A DNA stretch of 64,000 nt from Eledone cirrhosa (Eukaryota), in contig OZ024747.1 in NCBI GenBank assembly GCA_964016885.1, forward strand, positions 46,872,001-46,936,000, in the 5' to 3' direction. Of this stretch, positions 4,865 through 56,731 are shown piece by piece. Each line of letters starts with the position of its first letter. Position 1 is the first letter of the stretch. The notes under the pieces were generated by a model. The model did not search any database. It was not told where the DNA came from and saw nothing but the letters and a program-made list of their open reading frames with translations. A program made the position numbers and the translations under genes.

Positions 4865-5061
4865 AACAAAGGAATTGTGGTAAGGAACCTGATGGACCAT
4901 AACGCACCAGAGTACTCAATACTTAGGGTAGTAGAGTGGGAAATAGGAAAAAGTATGACCCCAACGGCAGAGCCTTTTCGACGGCTATTTCTGGACTATT
5001 TAGTCCAGAAATAGCCTTCGAAACGGCTTTAGCTCTGCCGTCGAGGTCATACTTTTTCCTA
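4865..5061 (-). mobile_element. Fold-back family A element (PLE terminal-repeat derivative) in (TA)n
   Basis: Homologous to 6143-6709, 22637-22822, 24372-24603 and 56532-56731; palindrome centred near 5000. Confidence 0.8.
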
Positions 5062-5104
5062 TATATATATATATATATATATATGTATATACATATATAT
5101 ATTT

Positions 5105-5229
5105 TTAATATAGAAACGGCTCCTACATGTCTAGAAGTGTTTCATTCGGAGGAAATCCTCAGGCGCCTACCTGGTGATTTCCTCCAAATGAAATAGTTCT
5201 AGTCATGTAGAAGCCATTTCTATATTAAA
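5105..5229. repeat. Fold-back palindrome with a degenerate hammerhead on each arm
   Basis: ~58-bp inverted arms; plus arm CCTAC-CTGGTGA...GAAA..GTC-ATGTAG, minus arm CTGAGGA...GAAA. Confidence 0.7.
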
Positions 5230-6228
5230 TAATTATTTTCTGCAATGTATTGAGTACCCTACTTACTGTGGTTACCCCTAATTGAACCCGCGATAAACAC
5301 ACACACACTCATATATATATATATATATATATATATATATATATATATATATATATATATATATATAGGGAGAGAGAGAGAGCGAGAGAGAGAGAGATAG
5401 AGAGATGTACGCTTGTGTGTGATTACACTATTGAGTCATTTTGCTATTTACAACGCATGTTATGAGTCAGATATTTTCACTTCATTTTTTAATACTTTAC
5501 ATTTTATTAATATCCTTTCAAATTACTGTCGGTTCTATTCAGGAATACTTTCAAAGTACATATTATTAGGCTTTTATGATGATGTTCAACGACTATCTTC
5601 CATTTAGAGAAGTCGTGGTTTGTGTGAATAAGAAATTATGCCAGATATAACAATTATGTGATATCGAACCCTTCATTGATGGATCAGGAATGGAGCCTCT
5701 GCATGGATGTAAGAACTGCTAGATACAGCAACCACATCTTTGACTTATCGCATTTCAAGGACTTAAAAAAAACAAAACATAGAACATATTATCTTAATTA
5801 GCTGGGGAAAATGTTGATCCCGGTTTGAATGTCGTTGGCTCAATCAAAGTTGTTTGTATATATATATATATATGAAAAGTGTAATTTTCTACACAAAACG
5901 AAGGTTATAGAGAAAATTGAGGTTGGTAATGGCACATGGAATATATAAGAGACAGAATACTTTTTTGTGAAAAAACATATAATTTTATAAGGTAAGGAAA
6001 TAATAAAAGGTATAAAAAATGACCGGTTTCGATGGGTCTGCAAAAGCAGATATATATATATATAACAAAGGAATTGTGGTAAGGATATATATATATATAT
6101 AACAGATATATATATATATATAAAGCAGATATATATATATATAACAAAGGAATTGTGGTAAGGAACCAAATGGACCATAACGCACCAGAATACTCAATAC
6201 TTAGGGTAGTAGAGTGGGAAATAGGAAA

Positions 6229-6334
6229 AATATGACCCCGACGGCAGAGCTCAAGCCGTTTCGACGGCTATTCTGAACTAAATTAGAATTTTGAACCTGG
6301 TGAATAAATAGTCAAACTTTTCAAGGGAGTACTT
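6229..6334 (-). ncRNA. Mirror copy of the U3-A8 hammerhead
   Basis: Reverse complement of 6517-6623 with few substitutions. Confidence 0.7.
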
Positions 6335-6516
6335 CCTTATATGGGAAGATTGTAGTTGTCAAGAGGATTGGTTAAAATTTGTTGTAAACACTCCCCTATT
6401 GTTCTACAGGCAAGTTCAGCCACCCTTAACTCCCACCAAATGCCATGATAGACTTATTTGTGTTTACAACAAATTTTAACCAATCCTCTTGACAACTACA
6501 ATCTTCCCATATAAGG

Positions 6517-6623
6517 AAGTACTCCCTTGAAAAGTTTGACTATTTATTCACCAGGTTAAAAATTCTAATTTAGTCCAGAATAGCCGTCGAAACGGCTTGA
6601 GCTCTGCCGTCGGGGTCATACTT
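6517..6623 (+). ncRNA. Type I hammerhead with U3-A8 core (UUGAAAA)
   Basis: AAGTACTCCC-TTGAAAA-G..ACTATT...AATAGCCGTC-GAAA-CGGC ttgagctct GCCG-TC-GGGGTCATACTT; GUC site after 6611. Confidence 0.75.
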
Positions 6624-7002
6624 TTTCCTATTTCCCACTCTACTACCCTAAGTATTGAGTACTCTGGTGCGTTATGGTCCATTTGGTTCCTTACCACAAT
6701 TCCTTTGTTATATATATATATATCTGCTTTTGCAGACCCATCGAAACCGGTCATTTTTTATACCCTTTATTATTTCCTTACCTTATAAAATTATATGTTT
6801 TTTCACAAAAAAGTATTCTGTCTCTTATATATTTCATGTGCCATTACCAACCTCAATTTTCTCTCTCTCTCTCTCTCTCTCTCTCTCTCTCTCTCTCTCT
6901 CTCTCTCTCTCTCTCTCTCTCTCTCTCTCTCTCTCTCTATATATATATATATATATATATATATATATATATATATATATATATATATATATATATATAT
7001 AT

Positions 7003-53478: not shown

Positions 53479-53485
53479 TTGATTG

Positions 53486-53568
53486 GTTACGCGAGTTTCG
53501 CTATTGATCAGCTCAAGGTTCGGTCTCTATCGATCTGGTCCGACTCTGGAATCAAAAGCTCGCCGGAC
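53486..53568 (-). ncRNA. Degenerate hammerhead
   Basis: Reverse complement GT-CCGGCGA-GCTTTTGAT...ATCAATAGC-GAAA-C tcgc G-TA-AC; core mutated. Confidence 0.4.
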
Positions 53569-53699
53569 AGCTGCTGTTGTAATCATTTAAACAGAATATT
53601 AAACTTAGCACTACTGGACATTGCTGAGTTTTTGAATATCAGGTATTTGGAGGCCATGGGTTTAGCATAGTGTGAGTGGAGAACCTGTAGAGGAAACCT

Positions 53700-55828
53700 G
53701 TAGAAGGCTTGGTTAGCCTCAAGCAGCGCACAAGGGATGGCGAGGTAGTATGTCTACCCACGGATAAGTCTGGTAGGATGTCAATAGATAGCATGCCGAA
53801 CTACATCAAGGCTATGGAACCCCACATCACCAACACAAGCGAAATTGGACAGCAAATACATGATGGGAGAGAGAAAATCCTCAACGCTCACATGATGATG
53901 TGAACCGACATCCTAAAGCCAAGCAGACGCACTGCCAACAACTTCCATGCGTCTAACAATGGCATACCACCCTTGTATGGGCTCCGCAAAGACCACAAGA
54001 CAGTCGACGACCCGACAACAGGACCACCAACAAGACCCGTATGCGGAGCAAATATAGCTAGCAACTACAGGATCTCCTACTTCCTGTCAATGGTTATACG
54101 CCCCATAATCAAAATGCCTCCAGATGTATGTGACACTACAGAGGATCTCCTCAGCAGAATCAGTGAGTGCAACAAAAACAGGAACCTATCCAACTGCATA
54201 ATAGGCAGAATGGATGTGGTATCATTTTACTCATCCATAAACATTGATTTTGCTGTGGAAAAATGTGTGGAGATGATCATTGAGAGTGAGGTGGAGTTCG
54301 CGACGTCGACACAGACGAACTGGGCCTCCTACTTAGACTTACCTACGACACTGACTACCTAGACAGCCATGACCTTAGACGTTTCTGCCCCAGTAGACCC
54401 ATAAGAGGTAGACCCCCACCATAACCTCAATGGCTAAAAAGACTCCCATGGGAAGGTGGATTGGGTGGACCAAAGCTATACGGACCCCCCAAAACAATGA
54501 TCAGGTAAGAAAAATGGTCGCACATGCAATAGGACCTAGTATCAAAACTACCCTAAAGGGCCACATATTCAAGTTCAACGAGAAGATCTACACCGAAAAT
54601 GAGGGAGCAGCCATTGACGTCAGCATAGCTGGTGACGTTGCCAACCTTTTTATGGTATGGTGGGAAAGGAGACTTAAAGATCTCCTTAATGAGAGCTCCA
54701 TAGACCTCATCATGTACTCTCGTTACGTAGACGATATCAATATAGTTATAAGAACATTCCCACAAGAGAGCACTAACAAGTTGGATTTAGAACGTAGCAC
54801 AATGGAAAGCATCCAGCAGATAGCTAATTCCATACACCAGAGTAAAACTGTAACTATCGACTACCCTTTCAAACACCCTAACAATAGACTACCTTATTAG
54901 ACATGGAACTCTGGATTAACACTATAGACGAGAGAGCCCAAATTCTCCACTCACACTATGCTAAACCCATGGCCTCCAAATGCCTGATACTAAAAATTCA
55001 CCAATGTCCAGTAGTGCTAAGTTTAATATTCTGATCGCAGACTTGGTACGAGTGATGAAGAACGTGTCCCGCATGTGCGAGCCAACAGAAATGGAAAGAC
55101 ACATCCAACACTTCATCAACCGCATGCAGTTCTCTGGCTACAACCAAAGAGACAGAGTCAGAGTATACGAAGGAGCCACGGAGAAATATAAGGCATTCAT
55201 AGAACTGGACATGAAAGGAATTTGCCCATTATACAGGAGCAAATCATGGAATAGATTAGATAGGGCTAGACATAAGATAGGGAAAGCCACCTCATGGTAC
55301 AACAACCAGAGATACCAGAGTGTCATGTTTGTGGACGCTACCCCTGGAGGGAAATTAGCAAACCGGTGTAGAAAGGCCCTGAGAAAGACCCAATTAAAGA
55401 TTAAGGTGGTAGAAAAGCCAGGAACCACCATAAAATCCCTGATCAGCAAAACCTACACTTTTAAGAAAACCCACTGTACTAATAGGAAATGTATCATATG
55501 TAAGGTAAACCCCCGGATAAACTGTAAAACTAGAAACGTAGTCTATAGCATAAGATGTACGGAGAGTACTTGCAGAAACATGACAACAACATACATAGGC
55601 GAGACAGCTCGTAGCATAGGTGAACGGATAGACCAACACTGGGGGGAACTAAAAGGACGAAAAAACGGTTCACTACTATACGAACATGCCAGACAACAAC
55701 ACGACGGTAACATAGACAACATAGAAATTAGAATAATATCTAAACATAGAAATGACCCAACAGATAGGCTAATCAGAGAGGCCAGTGAAATAGAACTTAG
55801 AAGGCCTATGCTAAACAGAAAGAATTAA
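53700..55828 (+). pseudogene. PLE RT + GIY-YIG (second lineage, possibly Nematis-like), 5'-truncated and frameshifted
   Basis: PTDKSG; LYGLRKDHK; PPTRPVCGA; MDVVSFYSSI; YSRYVDDI; HYAKPMAS; VVYSIRC..YIGETARSIGERIDQH; RLIREA. Confidence 0.9.
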
Positions 55829-56144
55829 TGGAATAACAACAACACCCAAACAAACAACACTGACCTAAGAGAAGTATAAATAAATAACTAGATAAATAAA
55901 TAAATAAATAAATACATACACAAGCACAATAACAACAAACACATATAAACACACACTAGTAAAGATAGAATACATCAACTAATACACAGTCACCCAATCA
56001 CGAACACACATCAAACAAAACACTATACACACACGCAAACGCATGCGCAAAGAAGACAAAATAAAATAAACAAATAAATAAATATATAAACAGACTAAAT
56101 AAAGATGGCGTAGAAAATACAATGCAACGGGAGGAAACAATAGC

Positions 56145-56185
56145 ACCACTGACGATGTTGCAGATGTGCAACGAAAGAACTTTGA
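56145..56185 (+). ncRNA. Hammerhead core in the 3' repeat of the PLE
   Basis: CTGACGA-T-GTTGCA gatg TGCAAC-GAAA, ~320 nt after the stop codon; stems I and III weak. Confidence 0.6.
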
Positions 56186-56531
56186 TAGACTATAGATATG
56201 TGTTTGTGTCTATATTGTATCTGTATTATTTTTGACCGTTGGTCAGTCAATGGTAACATTGAGGACCGAATAAATTAGATTACCGATATAAAAGACACAG
56301 AAGCGAAAAGCGAAAACCAATCAAACAGTGAGTGTGTTCTGTTATTAATTCTGGCAATATTACACAAATATGACCCTCCCCAAGTATAACAATATATATA
56401 TATATATATATATATATATATATATATATATATATATATATATATAGGAGGTGAGTTTTGAAATGCGCATAATAAAATACTTGGAACTCTTTTAACCACC
56501 TTTTGATCTTATATTATATATATATATATAT

Positions 56532-56731
56532 ATAGGAACCAGTAAGACCCCGACAGCTGAGCTCAAGCCGTTTCGACGGACTGAATTATTCTAGTCCAGA
56601 ATTAGCCGTCGAAACGGCTTGAGCTCAGCTGTCGGGGTCTTACTGGTTCCTATTACCCACTCTACTACCTCAAGTATTGAGTACTTTGGTGCGTTATGGT
56701 CCACCTGGTTCCTTACCACATTTCCTTCGTT
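56532..56731 (+). mobile_element. Fold-back family A element
   Basis: Palindrome centred near 56587; (TA)n on both sides. Confidence 0.8.

What the first reader, a model, noticed from the sequence alone, without database searches (positions are those of the whole stretch)
4865..56731. Family A: five insertions, each folded back, four of them inside ribozyme stem II
Copies at 4865, 6143-6709, 22637, 24372 and 56532 share the 3' end TTCCTT(C/T)GTT+(AT)n. All are palindromic. Four turn within hammerhead stem II (centres near 5000, 22695, 24440, 56587), and three inverted arms stop at the same TTCCTAT. Arms share copy-specific variants (e.g. GGAACCAGTAAGACCCC on both arms at 56532), so each inversion probably arose at insertion. 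The palindromes at 5105 and 51398 also turn at the ribozyme 5' edge. Inference: both (TA)n target strands prime cDNA through TAT microhomology, RT stalls in the ribozyme, and the products join through hairpin complementarity. This would be a structure-guided route to the inverted ends known from PLEs.
Basis: partly seen in the sequence, partly recalled or inferred. Interest (0 to 1): 0.78.

Follow-up and report, generated by a model that had tools for sequence, protein, structure and literature searches.

The report
Mirror-image stubs of a Penelope retroelement
The five palindromes are real and are likely the clipped, hammerhead-bearing ends of a very abundant Penelope-like retrotransposon; nearly all copies in the genome appear to stop in the same short stretch of the predicted ribozyme, which may help explain how these elements make their long-known mirror-image ends.

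Summary
All five palindromes, their centres and the shared TTCCTAT arm end are confirmed. Family A reads as the terminal-repeat/ORF junction of a Penelope-like element (PLE), with a type I hammerhead layout (U3-A8 core) and a real stem II at 6534-6588. Reads from other individuals show two genome-wide features. About a quarter of reads at TTCCTAT (6631) run into (AT)n, a second terminus 78 nt inside the main end, i.e. a long form of the known PLE tail. Depth also falls 16- to 54-fold across stem II. Inverted 5' arms, junction palindromes, tails and priming from both target strands are published for PLEs, so the architecture is known; I did not find the stem-II edge in print. Corrections: 6143-6709 is the core of a larger fold-back (5874-6864) whose ends belong to another family; the quoted 'copy-specific' variant occurs at another locus; junctions use 0-3 nt of microhomology and never keep the stem-II loop. 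Best model (0.4): both target strands prime at two fixed start sites, both cDNAs run off an RNA 5' end in stem II, and they are end-joined. A ribozyme stall and single-cDNA fold-back remain rivals. No long-read or RNA check was possible.

The parts
4866..5062 (-). Family A copy 1: long arm 4866-4998 (element on minus strand), short inverted arm 4999-5062 ending at TTCCTAT in (AT)n; junction at reference 6568-6572
5874..6049 (-). Family C long arm of the composite fold-back; 5874-5908 is a 35-nt tail absent from the other arm
6050..6142 (-). (AT)n with reiterated short pieces of family A and family C, present on the long arm only
6143..6391 (-). Family A segment on the long arm of the composite (hammerhead core at 6324, minus strand)
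6392..6459 (+). 68-nt spacer; family A upstream sequence continuous with the right (short) arm
   Evidence: table 8 (contig pieces 6398-6560 and 6393-6508 cross 6459/6460)
6460..6709 (+). Family A segment on the short arm of the composite; used as reference for all coordinates
6514..6629 (+). Type I hammerhead layout: stem I 6514-6526/6612-6629, U3-A8 core 6527-6533, stem II 6534-6588, GAAA 6589-6592, stem III 6592-6596/6606-6610, predicted cleavage after 6611
   Evidence: majority variants
6541..6575 (+). TATA-like heptamer (6541-6547) and initiator-like hexamer (6570-6575, A at 6572), 31 nt apart; candidate transcript start, chosen post hoc and untested
   Evidence: motif pair in 0.3% of 20,000 shuffles
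6632..6709 (+). 78-nt tail between the inner terminus (6631) and the outer terminus (6709)
   Evidence: table 7
6674..6709 (+). ATG and 12 open codons in all six long arms examined; likely start of the parent ORF
   Evidence: 3 of the 4 polymorphic sites listed here are synonymous
6724..6864 (+). Family C short arm: starts inside a hammerhead-like stem II, ends by overlap with a (CT)n run
   Evidence: table 7 (loose end before 6726 in run X5)
22637..22822 (+). Family A copy 3: short arm 22637-22694 after a G run, long arm from 22695; ATA on both flanks
24367..24603 (+). Family A copy 4: short arm reaches about reference 6550, A run at the junction, long arm from about 6558
56532..56731 (+). 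Family A copy 5: short arm with a 10-nt deletion, junction at reference 6566-6569
5104..5229 (.). Unrelated palindrome turning just 5' of a decayed hammerhead-like core
   Evidence: fails the strict scan
51397..51743 (.). Unrelated palindrome turning just 5' of a decayed hammerhead-like layout (stem I read by eye; GAAA not intact)
   Evidence: not found by either scan

Best explanation
Family A copies are likely solo stubs of a Penelope-like element's terminal repeat, with two recurrent 3' ends 78 nt apart and 5' ends that cluster inside a predicted hammerhead stem II; the inverted arm is likely made at insertion, when both strands of a cut AT-rich target would prime reverse transcription at the two start sites and the two cDNAs would be end-joined head to head. 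Shown: the anatomy, the two termini, the depth step and the junction sequences. Inferred: the element's protein (not identified here) cuts both strands. One 3' end primes at the outer start (6709). The other primes at the inner start (6631, the base of stem I), helped by 2-3 nt of TAT pairing. The template is uncleaved RNA. Both cDNAs most likely run off an RNA 5' end near 6560-6575, so the edge would mark the transcript start rather than a stall (about 45:35 over a stall). Joining uses 0-3 nt of microhomology. The 5874-6864 composite would be the same reaction run by family C on a read-through RNA that carried an older, decayed family A insertion.
For: Inner terminus: (AT)n follows 6631 in 3,732 reads (X10), 3,577 reads (X11), 270 contigs (X1) and 1 contig of a second organism (X5), about 24-26% of raw-read depth there; the other two TAT sites (6655, 6675) are not among the rows shown for X1, X10 or X11. 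Edge: depth at 6585-6600 is 23-54 times that at 6537-6552 and 16-33 times that at 6553-6568 in all 4 runs. There is no step across the cleavage site (ratio 1.0-1.1 in 3 of 4 runs, 0.68 in the thin X5). The short arm reaches further 5' than the long arm in 4 of 5 copies (2-3, about 8 or more, 2 and 68 nt), which a fold-back of the long cDNA cannot give directly. The reiterations at 6050-6142 are on one arm only. 8 of the 13 opposite-strand joints shown have one side at 6621-6657, near the inner start, like classical twin-priming inversions (orientation inferred). Family C shows a canonical 35-nt tail. In vitro a PLE protein cuts and extends both strands, starts at two internal sites matching genomic tail ends, prefers uncleaved RNA, and gives shorter products from 5'-shortened RNA (PMC11167929). 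PLE transcription starts lie in the terminal repeat (PMC2377424, PMC8557442). A TATA-like/Inr-like pair points to 6572, and 3 of 4 long arms start at 6568-6573.
Against: Only five junctions were read in full, and three of the asymmetries are 2-3 nt; later central deletions could give the same pattern (4 of 5 is compatible with 50:50). Short-read libraries favour non-palindromic joints, which could create the 6621-6657 cluster. The reference has a 1-nt deletion that clips alignments at 6579, and the RAD libraries are cut at AATT, including 6567, so the edge is placed only to about 6555-6580. Subfamilies with a diverged upstream region would also lower upstream depth. The 24372 short arm passes the proposed start by about 20 nt. 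The promoter motifs were picked post hoc and overlap stem II. In Drosophila Penelope the start lies well upstream of the hammerhead. The lizard enzyme needed no homology to prime, and it cuts at ATT, a motif present at 6630-6632, so endonuclease trimming could also set the inner end.
Confidence: 0.4

Rival explanations
1. One reading: both target strands prime, RT stalls or is released in the (perhaps protein-bound) hammerhead stem II, and the two cDNA ends meet through the hairpin's self-complementarity.
For: All 4 simple junctions and the genome-wide step lie in stem II. Family C also starts in a stem II, and 5105 and 51398 turn at the 5' edge of decayed hammerheads. The one window copy that reads through stem II carries three helix-weakening changes on both arms. 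One joint sits on the GAGCTC palindrome of loop 3 with 5 nt of overlap (6597-6606).
Against: No depth step at the helices met first. No junction keeps the natural loop or register, and overlaps are about 0-3 nt. Most reads that extend upstream carry the intact stem II, so read-through does not need a weak stem. Another hammerhead family in the window starts about 45-80 nt upstream of its core, and at least four fold-backs have no hammerhead at the turn. Hammerhead-less Naiads also invert.
Confidence: 0.22
2. Single-cDNA fold-back (self-priming, proposed for rotifer PLEs in a form using an antisense template): one strand snaps back on a local micro-palindrome, is extended along itself and is joined to, or cut at, the TAT/ATT site; later deletions blur the centre.
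For: The two ends of a copy lie within 2-4 nt of each other in 3 of 4 simple copies, tighter than the spread between copies. The 22637 spacer is on the long arm, as is the 1.9-kb spacer of the 16.2-22.1 kb repeat. The 4865 centre lies about 1 nt from a CTA/TAG micro-palindrome. Published precedent: PMC3846280.
Against: The spacer is on the short arm in 4 of 5 copies, including 68 nt in the youngest (arms differ at 3 of 249 aligned sites). The long-arm reiterations are not copied into the short arm. Apparently non-palindromic inversions occur.
Confidence: 0.22
3. Inverted duplication by host DNA repair or replication template switching after or during insertion, independent of the element's RT.
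For: Fold-backs are dense in this window and include a tRNA-derived SINE (30243-30338) and a 2-kb arm of host-like DNA. L1 insertions occasionally show foldback inversions attributed to DNA polymerases (PMC10191854).
Against: Arm ends coincide with element-specific termini (6631; the 35-nt family C tail), and flanking host DNA is not duplicated in the four simple copies.
Confidence: 0.07
4. MITE-like amplification of one or a few palindromic master copies.
For: Three copies share the arm end, and arm-shared variants are subfamily markers rather than private mutations.
Against: Four different centres in four copies; loose ends upstream of 6579 agree only about 50%; the symmetric joint is spread over 24 low-depth contigs (short high-copy unitigs would be missed).
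Confidence: 0.06
5. Assembly or library chimeras.
For: Window junctions were not verified in long reads, and symmetric joints are rare in raw reads (7 and 8 reads).
Against: Arms differ by up to 14% with indels. Symmetric joints occur in two other individuals (5 and 7 start points) and in 24 contigs. Arm ends match a genome-wide terminus.
Confidence: 0.03

Closest known systems
Endonuclease-bearing Penelope-like elements with inverted 5' pLTR, junction palindrome and one-sided tail (Adineta vaga Pen2a/Pen2/Pen3a, PMC3846280; Drosophila virilis Penelope, PMC2377424; overview PMC8557442)
   Same: Head-to-head inverted truncated copy; palindrome at the junction; tail on one arm only; first ORF codons inside the terminal repeat; AT-rich or (TA)n targets.
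   Different: Here the copies are bare stubs with no linked RT or endonuclease ORF; the tail is 78 nt rather than 30-40; the 5' edge maps inside hammerhead stem II, a link these papers do not make in the passages read.
PAc (Anolis Poseidon PLE) in vitro reaction, PMC11167929
   Same: Two RT start points matching two genomic ends; both target strands extended; uncleaved RNA as template.
   Different: PAc starts lie 111-118 nt into the ORF and need no homology; here the inner end lies upstream of the candidate ATG, at the base of stem I, with 2-3 nt overlap to the target. That study did not reconstitute inverted products in the parts read.
PLE hammerheads, including the U3-A8 variant of Schistosoma Cercyon elements (PMC4209133)
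   Same: Type I topology, U3-A8 covariation, G10.1-C11.1 pair, large helix II, palindromic loop 3.
   Different: Stem II is much longer (55 nt, two helices) and stem III has 5 bp; cleavage was not tested.
L1 twin priming (Ostertag and Kazazian 2001, seen only as a citation in PMC10191854; details recalled)
   Same: Second target strand primes internally, giving a 5' inversion joined by short microhomology.
   Different: L1 inversions usually do not duplicate the inverted segment and start at variable sites; here the inner start is fixed and the arms overlap as a palindrome, which needs two RNAs, two repeat copies or re-use of the template.
Non-LTR retrozymes (bioRxiv 10.64898/2026.07.22.740005, first fifth read)
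   Same: Short non-coding units with a type I hammerhead, related to PLE terminal repeats.
   Different: Retrozymes are head-to-tail arrays with complete ribozymes; family A copies are dispersed, head-to-head and mostly lack the 5' half of the core.

Membership tests
Penelope-like element (EN+) | RT plus GIY-YIG ORF linked to the terminal repeat | not testable with these tools
   No genome held. PLE-like ORF pieces lie in the window but share no DNA with family A; Pfam gave 0 hits for 9 of 9 window ORF pieces tested, so their naming rests on recalled motifs.
Penelope-like element (EN+) | Inverted 5'-truncated copy adjacent at the 5' end | tested here: met
   4 of 4 simple copies
Penelope-like element (EN+) | Optional tail of 30-40 bp on one arm | tested here: inconclusive
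   A one-sided extension with a fixed inner end is present but is 78 nt; family C's is 35 nt
Penelope-like element (EN+) | Hammerhead in the terminal repeat | tested here: met
Penelope-like element (EN+) | First ORF codons within the repeat or tail | tested here: inconclusive
   ATG plus 12 open codons in 6 of 6 long arms; 3 of 4 listed polymorphisms synonymous; too short to prove coding
Penelope-like element (EN+) | Insertion into AT-rich or (TA)n targets | tested here: met
   All long arms end in AT repeats; (AT)n loose ends dominate at 6631 and 6720-6723
Type I hammerhead ribozyme | Core with a 3-8 base pair, GAAA and NUH | tested here: met
   U3-A8 core 6527-6533, GAAA 6589-6592, GUC 6609-6611; the common polymorphism 6531 is at the free N7 position
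Type I hammerhead ribozyme | Three helices around the core | tested here: met
   Window copy: stem III 5/5, stem II 7/8 and 7/7, stem I 4/5 proximal; majority letters at 6523, 6537, 6539 and 6556 each improve a pair. The decayed window copy itself folds no better than shuffles (z -0.70); the scan gave 6 hits against 0-4 in 10 shuffles; Rfam gave none at gathering score.
Type I hammerhead ribozyme | Self-cleavage | not testable with these tools
   No assay; no depth step at 6611 in DNA
Non-LTR retrozyme | Head-to-tail tandem units each with a complete hammerhead | tested here: not met
   No tandem family A units in the window; 4 of 5 copies lack the core
MITE | Uniform full-length palindromic unit shared by many loci | tested here: not met
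   Four different centres and unequal arms; the genome-wide test is incomplete

The most novel reading that the evidence does not exclude
The hammerhead's stem II is the programmed 5' boundary of PLE insertion: a dimeric RT primes from both target strands at two fixed sites, is released in the ribozyme fold, and so builds the inverted arm at each insertion. The ribozyme would then act as a structural stop for cDNA rather than as a nuclease, and passenger insertions could be carried along as palindromes.
Probability: 0.22. Interest if true: 0.72.

Novelty: new member of a known kind. Interest (0 to 1): 0.42.

Why it matters
How PLEs make tandem and inverted ends is described as still undefined (PMC8557442), and the role of their hammerheads is unclear. 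This family offers a very large natural set of junctions with two fixed 3' ends and a sharp 5' edge, so spacer polarity, junction microhomology and transcript 5' mapping can decide between dual priming and fold-back, and between stall and run-off. It also shows that such insertions seed many short palindromes in an animal genome and can re-mobilise older insertions.

Tried and rejected
No whole genome is held, so breakpoints could not be catalogued locus by locus. Rfam: 0 matches at gathering score; among the 150 of 435 E-value matches listed, only hairpin-driven miRNA hits. A 17-mer scan of metagenome contigs gave 24 loci, all chance matches of at most 27 nt. A 19-mer scan of viral contigs gave 0. 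No RNA holder was listed, which says nothing on expression. Pfam: 0 of 9 ORF pieces hit. The first junction parser had faulty end-gap scoring and was replaced. I considered that stem II was only an artefact of the palindromes; rejected, because the helix exists in the unduplicated upstream sequence and the majority letters strengthen it. Ribozyme cleavage as the cause of truncation is rejected: no step at 6611. Read-end pile-ups at 6472-6475, 6567, 6701 and 6792 are AATT restriction sites, not biology. Look-ups of earlier findings by sequence and by place returned nothing. Paper searches for a link between PLE inversion junctions and hammerhead stems found none; the library lacks most subscription papers, and no supplements were read.
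Full report
Setting. The window is microsatellite-rich animal DNA with LINE, SINE and Penelope-like debris (names recalled from motifs, since Pfam hit 0 of 9 pieces). No whole genome is held. Reference coordinates below are those of the right arm of the 6143 copy.

Observation. The five palindromes, their centres, the common 3' end and the three TTCCTAT arm ends are present. Arms of one copy differ by 9.2% on average (5 pairs) against 15.7% between copies (40 pairs), and the partner is the nearest arm for 5 of 10 arms, tied for 2. 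The two arms therefore share a template lineage. This does not date the inversion: the quoted variant also occurs at another locus (table 5c), and arms of a palindrome can be homogenised later (general knowledge).

Correction on 6143-6709. The inverted repeat continues through (AT)n into a second family, C, on both sides (141 nt, 2 mismatches). The left arm runs 35 nt further to its own (AT)n; the right arm stops in a (CT)n run. The unit is a fold-back of 5874-6864 whose ends belong to family C, with a decayed family A insertion as passenger. Its 68-nt spacer is continuous with the right, shorter arm (table 8). A loose end from a second organism suggests a 3-nt overlap at that junction. Short reiterated pieces at 6050-6142 are on the long arm only.

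The ribozyme. Rfam finds none, and the decayed window copy folds no better than shuffles (z -0.70). A descriptor scan nevertheless finds a type I layout at 6527 and its mirror at 6324, among 6 hits against 0-4 in 10 shuffles. The core has U3-A8, a variant reported in Schistosoma PLEs (PMC4209133, passages). Majority letters in reads at 6523, 6537, 6539 and 6556 each improve a predicted pair, and the common polymorphism at 6531 is the free N7 position. Stem II (6534-6588) is thus a real feature of the family and not a product of the palindromes. An ATG at 6674 opens 12 codons in 6 of 6 long arms, as in rotifer elements whose repeat holds the first 12 codons (PMC3846280, passages).

Genome-wide test. 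I laid 4 of the 12 listed runs on 6393-6858 at 82% likeness: contigs of the same species (X1, possibly the assembly's own sample), contigs of a second organism (X5, only 54 laid) and RAD reads of two other individuals (26,644 and 27,033 reads laid). (a) (AT)n follows 6631 in 3,732 and 3,577 reads, about a quarter of local depth, in 270 X1 contigs and in 1 X5 contig. TTCCTAT is therefore a family-wide second terminus, 78 nt inside the outer end and at the base of stem I. (b) Depth at 6585-6600 is 23-54 times that at 6537-6552 in all four runs, and loose ends upstream agree only about 50%. Most copies thus appear to end in stem II. The edge can be placed only to about 6555-6580, because a 1-nt deletion in the reference clips alignments at 6579 and the RAD enzyme cuts AATT at 6567; diverged upstream subfamilies could inflate the step. 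(c) There is no step at the cleavage site. (d) Of 41 joints, 15 were shown and 13 of these change strand. The symmetric 6579 joint stands in 24 contigs and in 7 and 8 reads. Eight joints have one side at 6621-6657, and one sits on the loop-3 palindrome. The tool does not give orientation; head-to-head is inferred. Of the loose-end rows, 24 were shown and 821 were not.

Junctions. Long arms start at 6571-72, 6573, 6558 and 6568-69; short arms reach 6568-69, 6575, about 6550 (blurred by an A run) and 6566-67. Overlaps are about 0-3 nt, and none keeps the natural loop (6561-6568). The short arm reaches further 5' in 4 of 5 copies. Outer ends overlap the target by TAT in three copies and by AT in one; at 22637 the flank is a G run with ATA on both sides.

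Mechanism. Two fixed termini and extension of both strands match the in vitro behaviour of the lizard element PAc, which also uses uncleaved RNA and gives products limited by the RNA 5' end (PMC11167929, parts 1-2 of 4 read). Short-arm spacers, one-arm reiterations and apparently non-palindromic inversions favour two separately made cDNAs over snap-back, but each has a caveat (later central deletion, library bias against hairpins). For the stem-II edge, a stall fits poorly, since RT has passed stem I, stem III and the lower helix without loss. A TATA-like/Inr-like pair points to 6572 (0.3% of shuffles, post hoc), and PLE starts lie in the terminal repeat (PMC2377424 and PMC8557442, passages). 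I rank run-off slightly above stall. Against run-off, one arm passes the site by about 20 nt and the Drosophila start lies upstream of its hammerhead. For a ribozyme role, family C and two other palindromes also begin in or beside hammerhead 5' halves. Against it, another hammerhead family begins about 45-80 nt upstream of its core, several fold-backs show no hammerhead, and Naiads invert without one.

Novelty. Inverted 5' copies, junction palindromes, tails, (TA)n targeting and PLE hammerheads are published; self-priming was proposed in 2013, and twin priming is established for L1 (PMC10191854, passages). Retrozymes differ in being tandem (bioRxiv 10.64898/2026.07.22.740005, part 1 of 5). Five searches found no report mapping PLE inversion junctions to hammerhead stem II, within a library that lacks most subscription papers; no supplements were read. 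Unchecked notes from this scan describe similar palindromic PLE stubs in other genomes; these are leads, not support. Verdict: a real, new member of a known kind, with one undescribed and testable feature. Interest 0.42.

Noticed in passing
window 16186-22117: Inverted repeat with about 2-kb arms (98-100% identical outside simple repeats) of microsatellite-rich DNA around the end of a GIY-YIG-like ORF (19594-20289, minus); one arm ends in (AT)n. It looks like a PLE-type inversion carrying flanking DNA, with the spacer on the long arm.
   Followed up: partly
window 56806-56888, minus strand: A second, unrelated U3-A8 hammerhead layout with a long stable stem II, tail to tail with the 56532 copy in the same (AT)n.
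   Followed up: no
window 3124-3292, 36801-36964, 37691-37863: A third hammerhead family (canonical C3-G8 core); copies begin about 45-80 nt upstream of the core, and 3124-3292 has a 28-nt inverted arm with the ribozyme intact in the spacer.
   Followed up: partly
window 32053-32281, 36445-36624, 51768-52068, 57016-57240: Further fold-backs beside (TA)n with no hammerhead found at the turn; 36445 sits at the 5' end of a decayed PLE-like ORF, and the centre of 51768 has an uninverted sister at 52400-52470.
   Followed up: partly
window 30243-30338, plus about a dozen copies between 709 and 57872: A tRNA-derived SINE family; one copy carries an internal inverted duplication and several lie as tandem or inverted pairs.
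   Followed up: no
window 53592-53683: 92-nt inverted copy of an internal stretch (54943-55033) of the adjacent decayed PLE-like ORF, placed upstream of it.
   Followed up: no
window 52229-52290: Isolated type I hammerhead layout with an 8-bp stem I.
   Followed up: no
joints 6631-6723 and 6631-6709: Reads show short arms of one family A insertion lying in the (AT)n tail of another, i.e. nested insertion into the family's own tails.
   Followed up: no
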